Counted from the stretch's first letter, positions 32,694 through 60,700 are shown. The stretch: 64,000 bases of DNA from Vicinamibacterales bacterium (GCA_029940535.1 JAPYUM010000001.1:76773-140772); one strand, 5' to 3'. Numbers and translations are program-made. Notes: a model not told the origin generated them from the letters alone.

Positions 32694-33971
32694 TCAGACG
32701 ATCATTCCTGCCGCTACGGCCTCGTTTGTCTGCTCGTCGATCAGGACGAAACTGCCAGTCGTGCGATTGCGGTTATAACGATCGTAGAAGAGCGGCGCCG
32801 ACGTGCGCAGCGAGATGCGGCCGATCTCGTTCAGGCCAAATTCGGGGTCGCCCTCGATCTTGTGCAGCGTGTTGATGTCGACCTTGAAGCGGATGTCCCG
32901 TACGACGGCCCGGACCTCCTTGGTCGTGTGACGGAGCGCATACTTGCCTCTCGACACCAGAGGGCGCTCTGAAAACCAACAGATCATCGCCTCGATATCC
33001 TGGTCGACCCGGGGTGGGTTGTTCGGCTTGACGATCATGTCGCCCCGGCTGATGTCGATGTCGTCATCCAGCGTGATCGTGACGGACAGTGGGCTGAACG
33101 CCTCCTCGATCTGGCCGTCGAAGGTCTCGATAGCCGACACGTGGGTGGCGAACCCGCTCGGTAGAACCAGCACCTCGTCGCCCGGTTTGAAGACCCCGCC
33201 AGCGACCCGCCCCGCGTAGCCGCGAAAGTCTGGATGCGTGTCCGATTGCGGCCGGATCACCCACTGGACGGGGAAGCGCGCGTCCACGTGGTTTTCCTCG
33301 GACCCGACGTACACCGTTTCGAGGTGATGAAGCAGAGTGGGACCGCCGTACCATGGCATCTGGTCCGACGTGGCGACGACGTTGTCCCCGCGCAGGGCGC
33401 TGATCGGGATGAACGTGATTTCGACGATGTTGTCCAGGCGCGACGCGAAATCCTGGAACTCGGCGACGATCGCCTCGTATGTTTCCTCCTGGTAGTCCAC
33501 CAGATCCATCTTGTTCACCGCCACCACGGCATGCTGAATACGAAGCAGGTTGGCAATGAAGGCGTGACGGCAGGTCTGTTCGATCACGCCCTTCCTCGCG
33601 TCAATCAGGATGATGGCGAGGCTGGCGGTCGATGCACCCGTCACCATGTTGCGCGTGTACTGCATGTGTCCCGGGGTGTCGGCGATGATGAACTTGCGTC
33701 GCGGCGTCGCGAAGTAGCGGTAGGCCACGTCGATGGTGATCCCCTGCTCGCGCTCGGCGCGCAGGCCATCGGTCAGCAACGCGAGGTTGAGGTGCTCGTC
33801 GCCGCGCTTGCGGCTCGACTCCTCCATCGCCTCGAGCTGGTCTTCGAAGATGCTCTTGCTGTCGTACAGCAGCCGCCCGATCAGGGTGCTTTTTCCGTCG
33901 TCGACACTGCCCGCGGTCGTGAACCGCAGCAGATCCATTTCCATGTAACCCGCGCTCTCGCTCGTGGACAC
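32694..33971 (-). CDS. cysN: Sulfate adenylyltransferase subunit 1 (GTPase)
   Basis: 425 aa. G-domain motifs GSVDDGKST, DTPGH and NKMD, plus EF-Tu-like domains. No fused APS kinase domain. Confidence 0.9.
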   Translation of the reverse strand: MSTSESAGYMEMDLLRFTTAGSVDDGKSTLIGRLLYDSKSIFEDQLEAMEESSRKRGDEHLNLALLTDGLRAEREQGITIDVAYRYFATPRRKFIIADTPGHMQYTRNMVTGASTASLAIILIDARKGVIEQTCRHAFIANLLRIQHAVVAVNKMDLVDYQEETYEAIVAEFQDFASRLDNIVEITFIPISALRGDNVVATSDQMPWYGGPTLLHHLETVYVGSEENHVDARFPVQWVIRPQSDTHPDFRGYAGRVAGGVFKPGDEVLVLPSGFATHVSAIETFDGQIEEAFSPLSVTITLDDDIDISRGDMIVKPNNPPRVDQDIEAMICWFSERPLVSRGKYALRHTTKEVRAVVRDIRFKVDINTLHKIEGDPEFGLNEIGRISLRTSAPLFYDRYNRNRTTGSFVLIDEQTNEAVAAGMIV

Positions 33972-34876
33972 TAGAAATAGCCTTCCTTCTTGCGATCCTC
34001 CATGGCGGACTCCGAGCGCTTGTCGTCCGAGCGCGTCCCACGCTCGGTTTCGCGAGCGGCGGCGACTTCCGCGATGATGTCGTCCAGTGAGGTCGCGGCT
34101 GAGTCCACCCCGCCGGTACAGGTCATGTCGCCGATGGTGCGGAACCGGACGGTTCGTTCTTCTGAGGTTTCGTCCGGCTGGACCCGCACCACATCAGACA
34201 CTGCCAGCAAAGACCCGTGGCGATCGACGACTTCGCGCCGGTGCGAGAAATAGAGGCTCGGGAGGTCGATCGCCTCGTGTTTGATGTATTGCCAGACGTC
34301 CATTTCCGTCCAATTGCTCAGAGGGAAGACGCGGAAGTGCTCCCCATGGTGATGCCGTCCGTTGAACAGGTTCCACAATTCGGGACGTTGTCCCTTGGGA
34401 TCCCACTCCCCGAAGTCGTTGCGGTGGGAGAAGAACCGCTCTTTGGCACGAGCCTTTTCCTCGTCTCGTCGACCGCCGCCGAGCGCGGCGTCGAACTGGT
34501 GGGTCTCGATGGCGTCGAGCAGCGTCACGGTCTGCAGCTTGTTGCGGCTCGCATGAATGCCCTGCTCCTCGACGACCCGGCCCTTGTCGATGGAGTCCTG
34601 CACATACGCCACGACGAGGCTGGCGCCGATCTCCTTCACGAAGCGGTCGCGGAACTCGATGGTCTCGGGAAAATTGTGGCCGGTGTCCACGTGGAGCAAC
34701 ATGAACGGGATGCGCGCCGGGTGGAAAGCCTTTCGGGCCAGATGCGCCATGACGATGGAGTCTTTGCCACCAGAAAACAGGAGTGCCGGGCGATCGAACT
34801 GAGCCGCGGTCTCCCGCAACACGAAGATCGCTTCAGACTCCAACTGCCGGACGTGGTTGAGCTTGTAGGACCGCAT
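33971..34876 (-). CDS. cysD: Sulfate adenylyltransferase subunit 2
   Basis: 301 aa. PAPS-reductase/ATP-PPase fold (LLFSGGKDS) with a conserved CysD C-terminus. 1-nt overlap with cysN. Confidence 0.9.
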   Translation of the reverse strand: MRSYKLNHVRQLESEAIFVLRETAAQFDRPALLFSGGKDSIVMAHLARKAFHPARIPFMLLHVDTGHNFPETIEFRDRFVKEIGASLVVAYVQDSIDKGRVVEEQGIHASRNKLQTVTLLDAIETHQFDAALGGGRRDEEKARAKERFFSHRNDFGEWDPKGQRPELWNLFNGRHHHGEHFRVFPLSNWTEMDVWQYIKHEAIDLPSLYFSHRREVVDRHGSLLAVSDVVRVQPDETSEERTVRFRTIGDMTCTGGVDSAATSLDDIIAEVAAARETERGTRSDDKRSESAMEDRKKEGYF

Positions 34877-55181: not shown

Positions 55182-57500
55182 CTAAAAAAACCGCACCGAG
55201 TAGCCGAACCTCACGCCGCGTCCAATCTCCGGCGCGAAGTCCTTGATGAACGAGGTGTGGTTCCGATACAGCGCATTGGTCAGGTTGTAGCCCGTGACGC
55301 TCACGATGTGCGCTACGTGCGGCCGGGCCAGGATATAGGAGGCCGTCAGGTTGAACACCGAGTATCCACTGGTCTCGGTCTCATCACGGAATACTTGATC
55401 TTGCTGGGCCGCGATGATCAGCTCCGGACTGACCGTGAAGCCTCGGTAGGGCAGGTCCAGACTGATCCGCCCCCGCAGGGGCGGGATTCGTGGAAGGGCC
55501 TCACCGGTGTCCAGTTCGGCGTCCACGAAACCGACACCCACGTTCACCCAGAACGCGTCACCCACCCGCGCGCTCGCATCGGCATCGAAACCCACGAAGC
55601 GGCTGTCGGCTTGGCGAAACTCGGCTACCCGAAGCCGATCAACGACGGCCCCGGTGATCGATGCGAACACGAAATCGTCGATGTCATACACGTAGGCGTT
55701 GACGCTGCTCCTCGCTCGTGGGGACTGATACCGCAGACTGACATCGAGTCCCACCGTGGTCTCGCTCCCGAGGTCTGGATTGCCCACCTCGAAGACGAGG
55801 TTGCCCACATGCGGACCGAAGTTGTACAGCTCTTCCAGCGCGGGGGCGCGGTGCGAGCGCGTGACATTGGTGACGAATGCTATGTGGGGGCCCACGTCGG
55901 TCTGGAGACCGGCCGAGACCGAGCTCCCGGTGAAGTCGCGGTCGCGCACCGGGGACGCGATCGGTGCTCCCGGCGCCCCGGCAGACTCTGTGTCCAGAGC
56001 TGCACGCGGCAGCACGCTGTAGCTGTTGCGTTCAAGCCGGCCGCCGAGCTGCACTCGGTATCGCCCCAGTTCCAGCTCCTCGTAGACGAACGCCGCGAAC
56101 GAGGTCTGGTCAGTGGGAGGCGTCAGGGCTTCCTCTCCGACGGCGATGAAGTCACGCGCTTGAGTCCACACGCCGAACTTGCCGGCCAGGCGGGCCGTCT
56201 GCCGCTGATCCACCTCGGCTCGCAGCACGTAGGTGCGGTTGTCGAATGCCGTTCCGAGGCGCTTCGACCCACCCTCGGTTTCGACCTCGGTGTGTTCCCA
56301 ATCCACCACATTGAAAACCAGTCGGACCCCATCCACCACCGTGTGGTTCAGGTTCCGCATGCCGATGTCGAACCGGCCCACCCGGCGGCGTGAGTCCAGC
56401 TCTACCTGGACGTCGTCTTCCAGGGTGTCCGGGGAGCCGACGGTGTCGATTCCGGCGTCCACGTCCGCCGTGAGCGCGCCGACGAACGGGACACCGAACA
56501 GGCTGTTCTCGGCCGTGAAGCCGCCGCTGGCGAACAGCCGGTCGCCGAAGTAGCCGATGCCGGCGCGCGCCGAGTGGAGCTGGGTGGCCGAGTTCTCGAT
56601 CGCGCCCTGAGGCGTGCTGTAGTCGTCGGTGGCGCGCGTCCCGCCACCCAGCCACAGGATGGCGTTGCCATCCGTATGCTGCAAGCTGGCGTTCGTGCCC
56701 GCCTGCTGGTCGGCCGACCCGGTGTCGGCGCTCACCTGTCCGCGCGTCCCATCGGTCATCGAATCGAGATAGCTCTCGTGCGGCGTGATGGCATTGACCA
56801 CACCACCTACTGCGTTCGACCCGTACAGGAGCGTGGCCGGACCCCGCACGATTTCCACTCGATCCAGGCTGTTCGGATCGATGGTCACGCCGTGGTCGCC
56901 AGACTGGGCACCCAGGTCTCCGGTCCGGATCCCGTCCTCCATGATCAACACCCGGTCGCCGTCGAAGCCGCGGATGATCGGCCGGCTCGAGCCTGGTCCG
57001 AAGCTGCGTTTTGCGACGCCCGGTTCGTTCTCGAGCGCGTCCGCCAGCGTTGGCTGCGGGTCGGAGATCAGCTCGAACGAGTCCAGCGTCGAAATCGCGT
57101 TGAACGCGTCGAAGGCGGTGGTCCGTCCGCCCGCGGTCGCCGTGACCGTCAACTCTTCATGGACGGTGGATAACCCGAGCGTGAAGTTGGCGGTGACATC
57201 GGCGCCGGATGGGACGGCTACGCTCTGGCGTGCGGCGCTGAGATGCTCGCGTTGCGCGATAACCTCGTGCGAGCCTGGTGGGACGTTGGTGATCTCGTAG
57301 GTGCCGTCTTCCTCGGTCAGTGTCACCAGCGACGGACCCACCACCAGCACGACCGCGCCGTGGACCGGCTCCCCCGCGTCACCGAACGTGACCGCACCGC
57401 GGATCGTGCCGCTCTCCTGCGCGTCGGCAGACGCGTGCATCAGCGCGACGACGCAGATGGCCGACAGAATCCGGTACGGGCCGCCGCGTTGCCTACCCAC
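55182..57500 (-). CDS. TonB-dependent receptor with an N-terminal carboxypeptidase-regulatory-like domain
   Basis: 772 aa. Signal peptide, GTIRGAVTF...V (CarbopepD_reg-like), plug domain and a C-terminal beta-barrel ending in ...RFGYSVRFF. Confidence 0.85.
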   Translation of the reverse strand: MGRQRGGPYRILSAICVVALMHASADAQESGTIRGAVTFGDAGEPVHGAVVLVVGPSLVTLTEEDGTYEITNVPPGSHEVIAQREHLSAARQSVAVPSGADVTANFTLGLSTVHEELTVTATAGGRTTAFDAFNAISTLDSFELISDPQPTLADALENEPGVAKRSFGPGSSRPIIRGFDGDRVLIMEDGIRTGDLGAQSGDHGVTIDPNSLDRVEIVRGPATLLYGSNAVGGVVNAITPHESYLDSMTDGTRGQVSADTGSADQQAGTNASLQHTDGNAILWLGGGTRATDDYSTPQGAIENSATQLHSARAGIGYFGDRLFASGGFTAENSLFGVPFVGALTADVDAGIDTVGSPDTLEDDVQVELDSRRRVGRFDIGMRNLNHTVVDGVRLVFNVVDWEHTEVETEGGSKRLGTAFDNRTYVLRAEVDQRQTARLAGKFGVWTQARDFIAVGEEALTPPTDQTSFAAFVYEELELGRYRVQLGGRLERNSYSVLPRAALDTESAGAPGAPIASPVRDRDFTGSSVSAGLQTDVGPHIAFVTNVTRSHRAPALEELYNFGPHVGNLVFEVGNPDLGSETTVGLDVSLRYQSPRARSSVNAYVYDIDDFVFASITGAVVDRLRVAEFRQADSRFVGFDADASARVGDAFWVNVGVGFVDAELDTGEALPRIPPLRGRISLDLPYRGFTVSPELIIAAQQDQVFRDETETSGYSVFNLTASYILARPHVAHIVSVTGYNLTNALYRNHTSFIKDFAPEIGRGVRFGYSVRFF

Positions 57501-57968
57501 GGTGTGCCGCCGACTTCATGTTTCTGACCTGGTCATCAATCTTCAAACCGGAGCAAGAGTTCAACGCACCCTCCCGCCGGATGGCGGAATGGTCCACGCT
57601 TGGGGATGACGTTCGAACCCGACCTTCGGATAGTAGCCGACGGCACCCGGCGCCGATGCCCTGCCTCTGGTACTGTGCGTCGACGCCAGGTCCGACAGAT
57701 AGCAACAGTAGTGAAAGTCGGTCATCGAGCGGGACACCCCCACGAGCCGCGTCGCGACCCGCGCGGTGAACGTCAAGTCGGCGTGCGCCAGCATCCCTTC
57801 GATACAGGCCCGGTGTGACACAGGACGTCGCTCTGCCAGCGCCGGCTCGGTTTGGAAGGTGACGTCGGGTATCGTGGTCATGAACCTGCCTGATGCGAGT
57901 GTACGGGATCACGCGTCTATACTGGGGGAGTGCCGCTTCGCCCGATGGCGACGTGGCCGGGGAATGAC

Positions 57969-58352
57969 ATGACCCAGAGTAACTGGAAACTGGCTGTAGT
58001 CGTCGGTATCGCCGCGCTTGCACTCGGTTCGTCGGCGGGTTGCGGTGGGCAGGGCAATCACGTGGACGCCACTGAACCCGCTGTCCCCGCTCCGGCGGTG
58101 ACCACTCAGGAGGTGGCGCTCGCCGTTGAGGGGATGACGTGAGGTGGTTGCGCCCTGGCCGTGCGCCAGGCTCTGCTGGGTGTCAGAGGTGTCGTCGACG
58201 CCGAGGTCTGGTATGACGACAAGCGCGCCGACGTCGAGTACGACCCGGACACGGTTGAAGTCGCGGCATTGGTGCTGGCGATTGATGGGGCCGGTTTCGC
58301 CGGCTCGGTGATGGCGGTGAAGGACGACACGGACGGTGGCACCGGGTCCTGA
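57969..58352 (+). CDS. merP: MerP-like periplasmic heavy-metal-binding lipoprotein with in-frame TGA at the first Cys of GMTCxxC (candidate Sec; alternatively a pseudogene)
   Basis: Two ORF-track entries (57930..58142 and 58161..58352) lie in the same frame, separated only by TGA 58140..58142. The read-through product has a lipobox signal (ALALGSSAGC) and an HMA domain VEGMT-U-GGCALAVRQAL..V.GV..A.V....A.V.YDP. Confidence 0.5.
58154..58188 (+). promoter_or_regulatory. Candidate bacterial SECIS-like hairpin(s) downstream of the in-frame UGA
   Basis: Exactly 11 nt after the UGA there is a stem CCUGGC / GCCAGG with loop CGUGC, which contains GU (58154..58170). A second hairpin CUCUG / CAGAG follows (58171..58188). 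Confidence 0.35.
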
Positions 58353-58353
58353 C

Positions 58354-58719
58354 GTGGCCGTCCGGGGCACCGGTGTCGGCGAGCGGATTCCGGCCGCTGC
58401 CGGGGTCGTGGCCGCGTTGCTGGCCGCCAGTTGTTGTCTGCTACCGATGACGCTGATCGTGACCGGGGTGGCCGGCGCCGGTCTGATGATGACGATGATG
58501 CGCTTCGAGTGGCTGACGCTGCCACTCGGTGTGGGCGGATTGGCCGGTGCGTATGCGTTGTATTTTCGCGAGCGGCGCCGTTGCGATTCGGCGGGGTGCC
58601 GTCTGGTCGGTGAGCGGGGTACCCGGGCGTTGCTGGCGGTCGCCACCCTGGTAGTCATCGTCGCGTTGTTGCTGAAGTTCTCCCCCTCCTGGACCGCCGG
58701 CATTCTCCAACGCTTGTAA
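58354..58719 (+). CDS. merT: MerT-like mercuric/heavy-metal transport membrane protein
   Basis: About 121 aa. The first TM carries a Cys pair (AASCCLLPMTLIV) and the cytoplasmic loop a Cys pair (RRRCDSAGC), as in MerT. The start is either GTG 58354 (just after the merP stop) or GTG 58336. Confidence 0.65.
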   Translation: MAVRGTGVGERIPAAAGVVAALLAASCCLLPMTLIVTGVAGAGLMMTMMRFEWLTLPLGVGGLAGAYALYFRERRRCDSAGCRLVGERGTRALLAVATLVVIVALLLKFSPSWTAGILQRL

Positions 58720-58841
58720 CCCGGTTTCAGAAGCCGGGTTCACAACATCCTGAACGCGGCGTGATAGCGAGCCATTCCCGTCTGCCTCGTGATGCCGCGT
58801 GGGGTTCGGGGCACCGCCCCGACTAAGAAAGGACGACCAGC

Positions 58842-58995
58842 ATGTGCCGGAACATCAAGACCGTGTTTAACTTCGATCCGCCCGCACGCCCGAAGAGGTT
58901 CGCGCCGCCTCCGTGCAGTTCGTCCGCAAGCTCAGTGGATTCGTCAGTCCGTCGAAGGCGAACGAGCCGCCAAACGTTTCGCGCCCGCTGGCTAG
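58842..58995 (+). pseudogene. DUF2277-family gene, frameshifted
   Basis: MCRNIKTVFNFDPPA matches the family N-terminus. The conserved continuation TPEEVRAASVQFVRKLSGFVSPSKANE is in the -1 frame. This is consistent with a 1-nt loss in the C-run near 58881..58890. The C-terminal half is not recognisable. Confidence 0.55.
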
Positions 58996-59010
58996 TCTAG
59001 GATGCAAGGG

Positions 59011-59492
59011 CTATCCGACAAGCGTCTTGCGCAGCACGACCTTGTCGATGCCGGATGCCGCTTCATAGTAGCGACGTACCTCCGCATACCCGCGCGACCG
59101 GTAGAAGGTCAGGCTGGCCAGGTTGGGTGAGAAACATTCCAGCTCGGCGTCGTCGTGGTCGGCGCCGAGCGTCTGTTCGGCATGGTCCATCAGCGATGAT
59201 CCGATGCCTTGCCCTCTGAGCCCGTCCTTGACCCAGATCAGGTCGATGACCGGATCATCCAGCGCAACCACCCCCACCACCCGGTCGTTGCGGATGGCAC
59301 CGTCATTCGAGGCCACATGCGCGCGACATAATCTTCCACCTCTGTTCCGTCCGTCCACGGCCGCATTTCGTCCGGCTCCATGAAGGCGCCGTAGGTCTCC
59401 GTGAGCGAGGCCTTGCACAGCGCCACGACCGACCCCGCGTCGGCCGCGGTTGCGGCCCGCAGTTGGACCGTATCGTCGGCGGGTGAGGTCAC
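59011..59492 (-). pseudogene. GNAT-family N-acetyltransferase, apparent frameshift near 59310..59325
   Basis: The N-terminal half (VQLRAATAADAGSVVALCKASLTETYGAFMEPDEM...EDYVAR) and the C-terminal half (HVASNDGAIRNDRVVGVVALDD...GLRGQGIGSSLMDHAE...FYRSRGY) are in different frames. The GTG start overlaps the upstream stop (GTGA). Confidence 0.55.
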
Positions 59493-60700
59493 CGCTGCGC
59501 CCTGACCGCGGCCGCGAGCTCGCGGGCGAATGGTCCCCGGCGTCCGACCGAGACTGACTCGAGCCCCAGCCAGCCGGCCATGGTACCCAGTTCCCGCGCG
59601 AGCGCGTCGCTGACCTGAGCCCCGTCCGTGTCTGGTTCGAGATAGGCCGCCTGCACCCGCAGACGTCGACCGGCGCGGTCTGCTTTGAGATCGACCCGGG
59701 CGGTGAGCCGGTCGTTCAGCAGGAACGGCAAGACGTAGTAGCCCCAACGCCGTTTCGGTGCCGGGAGGAAGATTTCGAGACGATATTCGAAGTCGAACAG
59801 ACGCGCGGCGCGCGGCCGGTGCCAGACGACGGGGTCAAACGGAGACAGCAGCGCGGTCGCGTGTAAGCGTCGAGGGCGCCGCGCCTCGGGGTGCAGATAG
59901 GCCGGTTCCGTCCACCCGTGCACGCGGATGGGGTGTAGCTCGCCGGCGTCGACCAGTTCCTGCAACCGTGGTTTGACCATGGTCACCGGCATCCGGAAAT
60001 AGTCCGCCAGGTCGCCGGTGGTCGCCACGCCGTGCGCACGCGCGGCCTGAAGGAGCAGCGCGCGGTGCGCGGCAAACGTCGGCACGCGCCGACTGCGGAT
60101 GTCTTCAGAGAGGACCCGCTCGCTCAGGTCGAAGACCCGACGGAAGTCTGGGCGCCGGTCGGCGATGGCCAGCCGACCGCGTCCGAAGTGCCACTCTGCC
60201 ATGGCTCGGGGAATCGTGCCGTACCAGGAGCCCGGCAACCGCCGCTCGCCCGTCGTGGGCGAGGGCAGCTCCGCTGCGGTCAGTGCCCCCTGAGCTCGAA
60301 TCCGCGCCAGCACCTGACGGGAGTAGCCCGGTTCGCGCCGCAGGGCGCGTTCGAAACCGCGAGGGCGCACGCGATGGGCGAGTCGTCGATAACGGAACAG
60401 TGGCCACGCGTCGACCGGGACGATCGACGCTTCGTGAGCCCAGTGCTCGGTGAATTCGCGGCGGCGATAGACCAGTTCGTCGAGCTGGGCCCGGTCGTAG
60501 GCGCCGAGTCGAGAGAACGGCACCTGATATTGGGCCGGCACCAACACGTTGACGTAGTCGATCTGGAGCAGGCCAAGCTGGTGAATCACCCGCCTCAGGT
60601 GATTCATACCAACCCGGCTCCGGGGGCGGGGACGGTCGAAGCCCTGGGCCGCGAGGGCGATGCGTCGCGCGTCCGTGGGTGAGAGGTCGGACGACTTCAC
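59489..60700 (-). CDS. Winged-helix DNA glycosylase-like protein (YcaQ/AlkZ family)
   Basis: 403 aa. N-terminus ARRIALAAQGF....L..VI..LG.LQIDYVNV and the overall pattern recall YcaQ/AlkZ interstrand-crosslink glycosylases. Confidence 0.7.
   Translation of the reverse strand: MKSSDLSPTDARRIALAAQGFDRPRPRSRVGMNHLRRVIHQLGLLQIDYVNVLVPAQYQVPFSRLGAYDRAQLDELVYRRREFTEHWAHEASIVPVDAWPLFRYRRLAHRVRPRGFERALRREPGYSRQVLARIRAQGALTAAELPSPTTGERRLPGSWYGTIPRAMAEWHFGRGRLAIADRRPDFRRVFDLSERVLSEDIRSRRVPTFAAHRALLLQAARAHGVATTGDLADYFRMPVTMVKPRLQELVDAGELHPIRVHGWTEPAYLHPEARRPRRLHATALLSPFDPVVWHRPRAARLFDFEYRLEIFLPAPKRRWGYYVLPFLLNDRLTARVDLKADRAGRRLRVQAAYLEPDTDGAQVSDALARELGTMAGWLGLESVSVGRRGPFARELAAAVRAQR

What the first reader, a model, noticed from the sequence alone, without database searches (positions are those of the whole stretch)
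57969..58352. In-frame TGA at the first cysteine of the GMTCxxC metal-binding loop of a MerP-like lipoprotein: candidate selenocysteine protein next to merT
**Seen in the sequence.**
- ORFs 57930..58142 and 58161..58352 are in the same frame and are interrupted only by TGA 58140..58142.
- Reading through gives one canonical HMA/MerP domain, ...VALAVEGMT-[TGA]-GGCALAVRQALLGVRGVVDAEVWYDDKRADVEYDP..., preceded by a lipoprotein signal (SSAGC).
- The stop sits exactly where the first Cys of the CxxC metal-binding pair belongs.
- 11 nt downstream of the UGA a hairpin begins (CCUGGC-CGUGC-GCCAGG, with GU in the loop), followed by a second hairpin.
- A MerT-like membrane protein with CC and CxxxxC pairs follows immediately.

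**Established knowledge.** Bacterial Sec insertion needs a SECIS hairpin shortly after the UGA. In E. coli fdhF the minimal element starts 11 nt downstream and exposes G/U in the loop. Sec typically replaces a redox or metal-binding Cys that has Cys-containing homologues.

**Inference.** This is a Sec-containing periplasmic metal (Hg or other thiophilic metal) binding protein.

**Caveat.** Two nearby genes (DUF2277 and GNAT, within 1.3 kb) carry frameshifts, so a plain nonsense pseudogene or an assembly error cannot be excluded. TGC or TGT to TGA is a single substitution.
Basis: partly seen in the sequence, partly recalled or inferred. Interest (0 to 1): 0.68.

Follow-up and report, generated by a model that had tools for sequence, protein, structure and literature searches.

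The report
Selenocysteine metal-binding lipoprotein beside MerT
The in-frame TGA is almost certainly a real selenocysteine codon in a secreted MerP-like metal-binding lipoprotein paired with a MerT-like membrane protein; this kind of selenoprotein was already predicted in 2008, so it is a well-supported but not new type of find.

Summary
TGA 58140..58142 replaces the first Cys of the GMTCxxC loop of an HMA domain in a 127-residue lipoprotein precursor (57969..58352), and a MerT-like gene follows 2 nt after its stop.

It is not a nonsense mutation or an assembly error:
- All 9 related lineages found without using the TGA as a search key carry TGA at this codon.
- dN/dS downstream of the TGA is 0.05-0.17 at dS up to 1.6.

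The hairpin at 58154..58170 spans +15..+31 from the UGA, the same positions as the E. coli fdhF minimal SECIS. It has GU in the loop and covaries across 88 sequences (0/500 shuffles reach it). Cys-form homologues lack it. TGA is otherwise this genome's main stop codon.

selA/B/C/D are not in the window, and the rest of the genome could not be searched. The metal is undetermined: the window has no MerA or MerR, but relatives have MerR, and one other subfamily sits next to a true MerA.

Sec forms of MerP, MerT and HMA domains are already in the literature and in NCBIfam, so this is a new member of a known kind.

The parts
57969..58352 (+). Gene for a 127-residue Sec-containing HMA (MerP-like) lipoprotein precursor, from ATG 57969 to its true stop TGA 58350..58352
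   Evidence: frame; Pfam HMA, E = 1.5e-13. Orthologues are collinear over the full length.
57969..58043 (+). Signal peptide and lipobox (…LALGSSAG-C25); Cys25 codon at 58041..58043
   Evidence: Read from the sequence. A hydrophobic segment followed by [AGS]-C is conserved in all clade members. No signal-peptide predictor was available.
58119..58298 (+). HMA domain (residues 51-110)
   Evidence: PF00403, residues 51-110 matched to model positions 2-61 of 62.
58140..58142 (+). UGA read as selenocysteine (residue 58), the first ligand of the GMT-U-GG-C metal-binding loop
   Evidence: TGA is present at this codon in L001, L002, L003, L203/L204, L208-L211 and 114 metagenome loci. dN/dS after it is 0.05-0.17. 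Cys occupies this position in 128 homologous HMA sites.
58154..58170 (+). SECIS-like hairpin CCUGGC-CGUGC-GCCAGG, spanning +15..+31 from the U of UGA, with G22 U23 in the apical loop
   Evidence: Same span as the E. coli fdhF minimal SECIS. Across 88 sequences, 60% of cells are paired vs 45.8% in shuffles, and covariation is 0.366 vs 0.169 (0/500 shuffles reach it). It beats every slid register, and all 6 pairs show changes on both sides. At least 5 consecutive pairs occur in 34% of Sec forms and 0 of 128 Cys forms.
58354..58719 (+). MerT-like membrane protein (121 aa from GTG 58354, or 127 aa from GTG 58336) with three hydrophobic segments, probably translationally coupled to the HMA gene
   Evidence: Pfam MerT scores 20.8 bits (below the 32.9 cut-off) and NCBIfam MerT gives E = 3.4e-7. 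It lies directly downstream on the same strand in 29 fetched clade loci (28 with the window, by ORF clustering) and in L203-L211. Many homologues carry a precomputed PF02411 hit.
58432..58437 (+). Cys-Cys pair in the first hydrophobic segment (SCCLLP), as in MerT TM1
   Evidence: Read from the sequence. Conserved in all clade members printed.
58582..58599 (+). C-x4-C pair (RRRCDSAGCR) between hydrophobic segments 2 and 3, in the position of the MerT cytoplasmic Cys pair
   Evidence: Read from the sequence. Conserved in clade members.
55182..57500 (-). TonB-dependent receptor with a CarboxypepD_reg domain. It is a possible but unproven outer-membrane partner, transcribed divergently from the pair.
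   Evidence: Pfam. An orthologue (64.6% identity, full length) lies 2.1 kb downstream on the same strand in L203. Linkage is seen in three Vicinamibacterales sublineages but not in more distant clade members.

Best explanation
Gene 57969..58352 encodes a lipoprotein exported to the periplasm. Its HMA (ferredoxin-like) domain binds a soft, thiophilic metal ion through a selenolate-thiolate pair, Sec58-x-x-Cys61. The Sec is inserted at UGA 58140..58142 by the standard bacterial route: SelB carrying Sec-tRNA(Sec) is recruited by the 17-nt SECIS hairpin at 58154..58170, 11 nt downstream. The gene forms a two-gene unit with a MerT-like three-segment inner-membrane protein (58354..58719). By analogy with MerP to MerT, that protein's Cys-Cys pair in TM1 and cytoplasmic CxxxxC pair would receive the metal and pass it inward.

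Shown here:
- the TGA is conserved and translated through;
- Cys homologues exist;
- the hairpin is conserved and covaries;
- the two genes are strictly linked.

Inferred:
- that the inserted residue is Sec;
- the hand-off mechanism and the direction of transport;
- the identity of the metal. Hg(II) is the textbook substrate, but Cu(I), Cd or another soft metal is not excluded.
For: 1. TGA at the identical codon in 9 of 9 lineages found independently of the TGA: the window; L001-L003, found through peptide patterns elsewhere in the protein; and L203 and L208-L211, found through the MerT-like neighbour.
2. dN/dS for the 52 codons after the TGA is 0.05-0.17 at dS 0.13-1.65.
3. 114 of 120 metagenome loci matching GGN ATG ACN TGA GGN GGN TGY GC are secreted HMA domains with the frame open across the TGA, in many divergent subfamilies.
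4. Cys-form homologues: 128 unique HMA motif sites in L004-L080.
5. Hairpin: it spans +15..+31 like fdhF. Pairing, covariation and slid-register controls are, and the Sec vs Cys contrast is (MFE -12.3 vs -9.6 kcal/mol, p = 8e-8). Codon +7 is GUG or GUC in 91 of 91 Sec forms but varied in Cys forms. The unbiased loci add one two-sided change (L208, C16-G30 to G16-C30) and three G-U wobble changes.
6. TGA is the normal stop in 28 of 42 confident ORFs of the window, including this gene's own stop, so there is no genome-wide reassignment.
7. Best NCBIfam hit is a curated Sec-HMA family (NF041115, 77.7 bits).
8. Metal-system context in relatives: MerR-type regulators, CopZ_Nterm_CC and DF-family (seleno)protein genes are adjacent. 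A true MerA lies next to another Sec-HMA subfamily (TIGR02053, 497 bits vs a 454 cut-off).
Against: - No selA, selD, selB or tRNA-Sec in the window or in about 1.3 Mb of fetched loci. The only SelB-like hit is CysN, next to CysD. The rest of the genome could not be searched.
- No Rfam SECIS match.
- The single-sequence fold is no better than shuffles.
- The hairpin lacks the bulged U of the fdhF element.
- 40% of cells do not pair in the window's register, because other subfamilies place their hairpin a few nt further 3'.
- Most Sec-form sequences were collected with a pattern that fixes 18 bases around the TGA, so they are not a random sample.
- For function: the window has no MerA, MerR or zf_CopZ. 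The MerT-like protein is below the Pfam and NCBIfam cut-offs, and the HMA protein is below the MerP cut-off (54.6 vs 92.55).
Confidence: 0.9

Rival explanations
1. The TGA is a plain nonsense mutation (a pseudogene) or a sequencing or assembly error. TGC or TGT to TGA is a single substitution, and the gene lies in a locally decayed region.
For: The flanks really are damaged in the window. DUF2277 is frameshifted and truncated, both GNAT genes are frameshifted, and about 1.5-1.7 kb present in L186 and L103 (GNAT plus DinB_2 genes) is missing.
Against: - The same TGA occurs in every independent orthologous contig, down to 55-70% protein identity.
- dN/dS after the stop is 0.05-0.17.
- The HMA and MerT-like genes have no indels while their neighbours do.
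- The lesions in the neighbours are indels, not substitutions.
Confidence: 0.01
2. The UGA is decoded, but not as selenocysteine. It could be context-dependent read-through by a near-cognate tRNA (Trp, Cys or Arg), or an unknown recoding signal that uses the same hairpin.
For: - No Sec machinery was observed.
- No experimental data exist.
- The hairpin differs from fdhF in lacking a bulged U.
Against: - The position is the first metal-ligand Cys, the classic Sec/Cys exchange site. HMA UxxC, MerP and MerT Sec forms are already catalogued (PMC2398784, PMC9312934; NF041115 and NF045683).
- The hairpin's position, its 17-nt size and the loop GU match the SelB-dependent element.
- Inefficient near-cognate read-through would be an odd way to supply an essential ligand across more than 100 lineages.
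Confidence: 0.05
3. There are two separate products: a 57-residue lipopeptide ending at the TGA, and an independent 63-residue protein restarted at GTG 58161, as gene callers annotate it.
For: Gene callers split the gene this way (49 aa, or 51+60, 48+58, 51+47 and 55+58 aa). P0001 starts at the equivalent of 58161.
Against: - The six codons between the TGA and 58161 (GGCALA) are conserved as protein, with synonymous changes, in loci found independently of them (L003, L203, L208-L211).
- Neither half is a complete HMA fold. The Pfam match runs across the TGA.
- A restart at 58161 would omit Cys61 and so lose the metal site.
Confidence: 0.02

Closest known systems
Predicted selenoprotein family 'Mercuric transport protein MerP' from the Global Ocean Sampling selenoproteome (PMC2398784, 2008, table of families: 2 Sec sequences, 0 Cys homologues)
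   Same: A marine, MerP-like protein with an in-frame UGA. The same paper also lists a 'putative mercuric transport protein' (MerT-type) and a 'cation-transporting ATPase UxxC' as Sec families.
   Different: It appears only as a table entry, with no sequence available to me for direct comparison, so identity with this clade is not shown. This clade is a lipoprotein strictly paired with a Cys-only MerT-like gene.
Sec-containing HMA domain of cation-transporting P-type ATPase (COG2217, UxxC; ABB15669.1, listed in PMC9312934)
   Same: Sec replaces the first Cys of the HMA CxxC metal-binding loop.
   Different: That HMA is a cytoplasmic N-terminal domain of an efflux ATPase. This one is a stand-alone exported lipoprotein next to a MerT-like importer-type protein.
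NCBIfam NF041115 UxxU_metal_bind, 'metal-binding (seleno)protein'
   Same: It is the best-scoring curated family for the read-through product (77.7 bits, E = 5.4e-22). It is an HMA fold with Sec in the metal loop.
   Different: The score is below the family's 95-bit cut-off for the window protein and for four of the five tested secreted UGGC subfamily representatives (62-78 bits); the fifth scores only 34.7 bits. The family model is 74 positions long and its name gives a UxxU motif, whereas this protein is UxxC and has a signal peptide and lipobox.
NCBIfam NF045683, 'MerT/CopZ fusion-like heavy metal transport selenoprotein'
   Same: It combines a MerT-type membrane module with an HMA/CopZ module and selenocysteine.
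   Different: That family is one fused polypeptide. Here there are two genes in HMA-then-MerT order. The score is 45 bits against a 375 cut-off.
Canonical MerP-MerT of Gram-negative mer operons (TIGR02052 MerP, PF02411 MerT)
   Same: A periplasmic HMA protein with a GMTCxxC-type loop next to a small three-helix membrane protein that has CC in helix 1 and a cytoplasmic Cys pair.
   Different: - Sec replaces Cys.
- It is a lipoprotein rather than a soluble periplasmic protein.
- The gene order is P then T rather than T then P.
- There is no MerA or MerR in the window.
- Both proteins score below the curated cut-offs (54.6 vs 92.55, and 20.8 vs 32.9).
E. coli fdhF SECIS (the experimentally defined minimal bacterial SECIS)
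   Same: A 17-nt stem-loop occupying +15..+31 from the U of UGA, after an 11-nt spacer. G and U are exposed in the apical loop at positions 22-24.
   Different: There is no bulged U in the stem, the loop is CGUGC rather than GGUC, and no extended lower helix is conserved.

Membership tests
Bacterial selenoprotein gene (UGA recoded to Sec) | In-frame UGA conserved at the same codon in orthologues | tested here: met
   9 of 9 lineages found without using the TGA as a search key, plus 114 of 120 pattern-derived loci.
Bacterial selenoprotein gene (UGA recoded to Sec) | Coding conservation continues downstream of the UGA | tested here: met
   dN/dS is 0.05-0.17 over the 52 codons after the TGA, at dS up to 1.65.
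Bacterial selenoprotein gene (UGA recoded to Sec) | Homologues with Cys aligned to the UGA | tested here: met
   All HMA motifs in L004-L080 carry Cys (128 unique sites). The closest are 42-50% identical.
Bacterial selenoprotein gene (UGA recoded to Sec) | SECIS stem-loop shortly 3' of the UGA, supported by covariation | tested here: met
   Hairpin at 58154..58170.
Bacterial selenoprotein gene (UGA recoded to Sec) | selA, selB, selC and selD present in the same genome | not testable with these tools
   None were found in the window or in the fetched loci.
Bacterial selenoprotein gene (UGA recoded to Sec) | Selenium actually present in the protein | not testable with these tools
   This needs 75Se labelling or mass spectrometry.
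HMA domain (Pfam PF00403) | Score above the gathering threshold, with the metal-binding loop after beta-1 | tested here: met
   51.3 bits against a 24.8 cut-off, with Cys substituted for Sec; loop GMT-U-GG-C.
MerP (TIGR02052 equivalog) | Score above the curated cut-off | tested here: not met
   54.6 bits against 92.55.
MerP (TIGR02052 equivalog) | Encoded in a mer operon with MerR and MerA | tested here: not met
   tblastn found no MerR, MerA or zf_CopZ in the window. Relatives do have MerR next to the pair, and another Sec-HMA subfamily has a true MerA.
NF041115 UxxU_metal_bind (seleno)protein | Score above the cut-off, and a UxxU motif | tested here: not met
   77.7 bits against 95. The motif here is UxxC.
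NF045683 MerT/CopZ fusion selenoprotein | A single fused polypeptide scoring above the cut-off | tested here: not met
   45 bits against 375. There are two separate genes.
MerT (PF02411 / NF010314) | Score above the curated cut-off | tested here: not met
   Pfam gives 20.8 bits against 32.9. NCBIfam gives 30.4 bits against 150, E = 3.4e-7. Many close homologues carry a precomputed PF02411 hit.
MerT (PF02411 / NF010314) | CC pair in the first transmembrane helix and a Cys pair in the loop between helices 2 and 3 | tested here: met
   SCCLLP at 58432..58437 and C-x4-C at 58582..58599, both conserved across the clade. The topology is inferred from hydrophobicity only.
fdhF-type bacterial SECIS | Minimal stem-loop beginning 11 nt after the UGA, with G/U exposed in the apical loop | tested here: met
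   Both elements span +15..+31. The fdhF loop is GGUC at 22-25 and the window loop is CGUGC at 21-25.
fdhF-type bacterial SECIS | Bulged U in the upper stem | tested here: not met
   The window stem has 6 uninterrupted pairs.

The most novel reading that the evidence does not exclude
The Sec-HMA lipoprotein and its MerT-like partner may not be a mercury-resistance remnant. They could instead be a selenium-dependent, high-affinity uptake route for a scarce soft metal in marine Vicinamibacterales, working with the TonB-dependent receptor that stays within 0.5-2.1 kb (6.1 kb in L204) in two different gene arrangements. In that reading, the secreted 'GMT-U-GGC' proteins make up a large, systematically mis-annotated class of periplasmic selenoproteins in soil and ocean bacteria. 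That would be far more than the two sequences recognised in 2008.
Probability: 0.2. Interest if true: 0.6.

Novelty: new member of a known kind. Interest (0 to 1): 0.4.

Why it matters
The practical value is for annotation. Every gene call seen for this locus is truncated or split at the UGA (a 49-aa stub, 51+60 aa and similar). As a result, a protein search with the full product returned a single chimeric fragment.

The scan suggests that secreted UGGC-type Sec-HMA proteins are common in soil and marine metagenomes, and that none of the secreted UGGC representatives tested reaches the existing NCBIfam Sec-HMA model. A dedicated model would recover many hidden selenoproteins.

Biologically, a selenolate ligand in a periplasmic metal chaperone should bind Hg(II) and other soft metals more tightly and at lower pKa than a thiolate. 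That is relevant to trace-metal and mercury cycling in the ocean. It does not change what is known about Sec decoding.

Tried and rejected
- **Single-sequence folding of the hairpin region:** z-scores were +0.39 and -0.48, which is uninformative at 66% GC. I used comparative tests instead.
- **Rfam, at gathering and permissive thresholds:** no SECIS family matched; only noise hits appeared.
- **tRNA scan of the window and aragorn on all loci:** no tRNA-Sec.
- **tblastn with E. coli SelA, SelB and SelD:** the only hit was to a GTPase domain, which Pfam shows to be CysN next to CysD. Rejected as SelB.
- **Protein search with the read-through product:** one hit, P0001, which starts at the post-TGA GTG and continues into an imidazoleglycerol-phosphate dehydratase (HisB-like) sequence. 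It is a truncated call on a chimeric or rearranged contig.
- **Scan of the window for other TGA-interrupted coding frames:** only ordinary gene junctions and antisense frames turned up, with no second selenoprotein candidate.
not conserved among close orthologues.
- **TonB-dependent receptor as an obligatory partner:** linkage holds in only three close sublineages, not clade-wide. I kept it as a hint only.
- **Assigning the metal from the MerR-type regulators of relatives:** ZntR, MerR, CueR and CadR models all score below their cut-offs, so this was inconclusive.
- **Sec use in Acidobacteria, looked up in the 2016 comparative-genomics paper (PMC5029168):** the phylum is not mentioned in the main text.

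Full report
**1. The observation**

- ORFs 57930..58142 and 58161..58352 share one frame and are separated only by TGA 58140..58142.
- Reading from ATG 57969 gives a 127-residue product. It has a signal segment and lipobox (…LALGSSAG-C25), a Pro/Ala-rich linker, and then …VALAVEGMT-[TGA]-GGCALAVRQALLGV….
- With Cys in place of the stop, Pfam HMA scores 51.3 bits (cut-off 24.8) over 60 of 62 model positions.
- The stop therefore sits at the first ligand of the GMTCxxC loop (residue 58, with Cys61 as the second ligand).
- Two nucleotides after the gene's real stop (TGA 58350..58352), a GTG opens a 121-residue membrane protein. It has SCCLLP in its first hydrophobic segment and RRRC-DSAG-CR between the second and third.
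- That protein hits MerT weakly: Pfam 20.8 bits against a 32.9 cut-off, and NCBIfam E = 3.4e-7.

**2. Not an error and not a pseudogene**

A genome-collection search found three orthologues in Acidobacteria/Vicinamibacteria MAGs: L001 (84% identity), L002 (83%) and L003 (70%). They were matched through peptides away from the site, and all carry TGA at the same codon.

I then reached further relatives only through their MerT-like neighbour, so the TGA played no part in finding them.
- These are P0017 (L203-L206), P0046 (L208), P0086 (L209), P0119 (L210) and P0121 (L211).
- In every case the upstream HMA gene has TGA at this codon.
- In every case the public gene calls are a stub or two fragments.

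That makes 9 of 9 lineages found independently of the TGA. Over the 52 codons after the TGA, dN/dS against eleven relatives is 0.05-0.17 at dS 0.13-1.65, so the region a real stop would leave untranslated is under strong purifying selection.

In the window, DUF2277 is frameshifted and truncated, both flanking GNAT genes are frameshifted, and about 1.5-1.7 kb present in L186 and L103 is missing. That segment encodes a GNAT and a DinB_2 protein. These lesions are indels in the neighbours. The HMA and MerT-like genes are intact in every contig.

**3. A large family**

I scanned metagenome contigs for GGN ATG ACN TGA GGN GGN TGY GC.
- 114 of them are real HMA domains: a signal peptide or lipobox, then beta-1, then GMT-U-GGC, with the rest of the domain in an open frame.
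- Only six are chance matches.
- They fall into many divergent subfamilies from soil, marine and sediment assemblies.
- Some have two Sec-HMA domains in tandem (L093, L118).
- All HMA motifs in the Cys-biased genome set L004-L080 carry Cys, so Sec/Cys pairs exist.

**4. The SECIS**

The hairpin CCUGGC-CGUGC-GCCAGG (58154..58170) spans +15..+31 counted from the U of UGA. The experimentally defined E. coli fdhF minimal SECIS, extracted from NC_000913, also spans +15..+31. Its loop is GGUC at 22-25, against CGUGC at 21-25 here.

As a single sequence the fold is no better than shuffles. The comparative data are clear.
- Across 88 distinct Sec-form sequences, not selected for pairing, the window's six pairs are formed in 60% of cells against 45.8 ± 1.7% in shuffles (0/500 reach it).
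- Covariation is 0.366 against 0.169 (0/500). The true register beats all six slid registers, and all six pairs show changes on both sides.
- The unpaired 40% comes mainly from subfamilies whose hairpin is shifted a few nucleotides 3', for example GUGC-AGUCU-GCAC.
- At least 5 consecutive pairs in the window's register occur in 34% of Sec forms and in 0 of 128 Cys forms.
- Mean MFE of +10..+48 is -12.3 kcal/mol for Sec forms and -9.6 for Cys forms (Mann-Whitney p = 8e-8).
- Codon +7, which supplies the loop GU, is GUG or GUC in 91 of 91 Sec forms but varied in Cys forms.
- The neighbour-derived loci add one two-sided change (L208: CGUGGC…GCCACG) and three G-U wobble changes.
- The stem lacks the bulged U of fdhF.

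**5. Sec or something else**

TGA terminates 28 of 42 confident ORFs in the window, including this gene, so the code is not reassigned. A site-specific UGA followed by a conserved hairpin at the SelB distance, at a metal-ligand Cys position with Cys homologues, is the signature of bacterial Sec insertion.

What I could not show is the machinery.
- No tRNA-Sec, SelA or SelD is present in the window or in about 1.3 Mb of fetched loci.
- The one SelB-like hit is CysN, next to CysD.

I put the Sec reading at about 0.9.

**6. Partner, context and function**

The MerT-like gene lies directly downstream on the same strand in 29 fetched loci of the window's clade (28 with the window, by ORF clustering), down to 55% identity, and in all neighbour-derived loci. 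It is a large family: 245 hits, many with a precomputed PF02411 match, and one named 'mercuric ion transport' by JGI. Other Sec-HMA subfamilies have other neighbours.

Context in relatives points to a regulated metal system.
- MerR-family regulators are adjacent (Pfam). No metal-specific model passes its cut-off.
- A CopZ_Nterm_CC iron-sulfur metallochaperone is adjacent (NF047645, 120 bits against 100).
- A DF-family (seleno)protein in its Cys form is adjacent (NF049942, 96.9 against 70).
- Thioredoxin-fold proteins are also nearby.
- In the separate 'TKTVTIRVTGMTUGGCARSVEQALKK' subfamily, a true MerA follows (TIGR02053, 497 against 454).

The window itself has no MerA, MerR or zf_CopZ. A TonB-dependent receptor (55182..57500, minus strand) lies 0.5 kb away. 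Its 64.6%-identical orthologue lies 2.1 kb downstream in L203 in a different arrangement, but the linkage is not clade-wide.

The best-supported mechanism is periplasmic capture of a soft metal by the Sec58/Cys61 pair and hand-off to the Cys pairs of the MerT-like protein. The metal and the physiological purpose (detoxification or acquisition) remain open.

**7. Comparison with what is known**

- The 2008 GOS selenoproteome table lists 'Mercuric transport protein MerP' (2 sequences), a 'putative mercuric transport protein' and 'cation-transporting ATPase UxxC' as Sec families (PMC2398784).
- The 2022 and 2026 reviews repeat the MerT, ATPase and mercuric-reductase-like (UxxU) families (PMC9312934; PMC13188914).
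- Haft's 2022 preprint mentions MerT-family selenoproteins.
- NCBIfam holds NF041115 (UxxU metal-binding selenoprotein) and NF045683 (MerT/CopZ fusion selenoprotein). The window protein scores best against NF041115 but below its cut-off, as do four of the five tested secreted UGGC subfamily representatives (62-78 bits against 95); the fifth scores only 34.7 bits.

So the kind is known. This clade (a UxxC lipoprotein plus a separate Cys-only MerT-like gene, in Vicinamibacterales) is an uncurated and routinely mis-annotated member.

**8. Limits**

- Most Sec-form sequences were collected with a pattern that fixes the bases around the TGA, and related sequences are not independent. The covariation statistics should therefore be read together with the slid-register control and the Cys-form contrast, not as probabilities.
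- Lipoprotein status and membrane topology are read from the sequence only.
- No experiment supports selenium incorporation.

Noticed in passing
window 57500..57900 and 58720..59750: This is a local decay zone around an intact gene pair. The upstream GNAT-like gene, DUF2277 (58842.., frameshift near 58885 and C-terminal truncation) and the downstream GNAT (59011..59747, frameshift near 59330) are all disrupted. A 1.5-1.7 kb segment holding a 188-aa GNAT and a 184-aa DinB_2 gene in L186 and L103 is absent here. Large ORFs elsewhere in the window look intact, so the damage is local rather than assembly-wide.
   Followed up: partly
window 55182..57500 (-); L203 11956..14271 (+): A TonB-dependent receptor with a CarboxypepD_reg domain stays within 0.5-2.1 kb of the Sec-HMA/MerT-like pair in two different gene arrangements (6.1 kb in L204, where transposase-like genes intervene). 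The two copies are 64.6% identical over their full length. More distant clade members instead have a Phenol_MetA_deg-type outer-membrane beta-barrel gene nearby (L137 716..1666). This could be an outer-membrane partner.
   Followed up: partly
L093 and L118 (6430..6695): One reading frame, open except for the two TGA codons, contains two tandem HMA domains, each with its own in-frame TGA (GMT-U-GGCASGV) and its own downstream hairpin. That would mean two Sec codons in one gene.
   Followed up: no
L098 444..1880 (-), also L095 389..1780: In the 'TKTVTIRVTGMTUGGCARSVEQALKK' subfamily the Sec-HMA gene is followed directly by a pyridine-nucleotide-disulfide oxidoreductase. The L098 copy passes the MerA equivalog cut-off (497 vs 454 bits), which would make its neighbour a Sec-containing MerP in a real mer operon. 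The L095 copy does not pass (293 bits) and looks closer to glutathione reductase.
   Followed up: partly
L209 2333..2650; L210 2290..2613; L211 50..361: A 103-107-aa 'YFDGCPSY' protein lies just upstream of the Sec-HMA gene. It belongs to NCBIfam's DF family (seleno)protein (96.9 bits vs 70), here in its Cys form. So a family that elsewhere contains Sec sits in the same operon.
   Followed up: partly
P0001 (ENA, 210 aa): The only database protein matching the read-through query starts at the GTG equivalent to 58161 and, after 32 residues, switches to an imidazoleglycerol-phosphate dehydratase sequence. It is either a chimeric assembly or a rearranged locus.
   Followed up: no
L210 3408..3929: A Pyr_redox_2 gene downstream of the MerT-like gene is called at only 173 aa; full-length relatives are about 460 aa. 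IS1595-type transposase genes flank the locus. It may be truncated or interrupted.
   Followed up: no
window 32694..34876 (-): A CysN/CysD (sulfate adenylyltransferase) pair. CysN is the source of the spurious SelB-like tblastn hit.
   Followed up: yes
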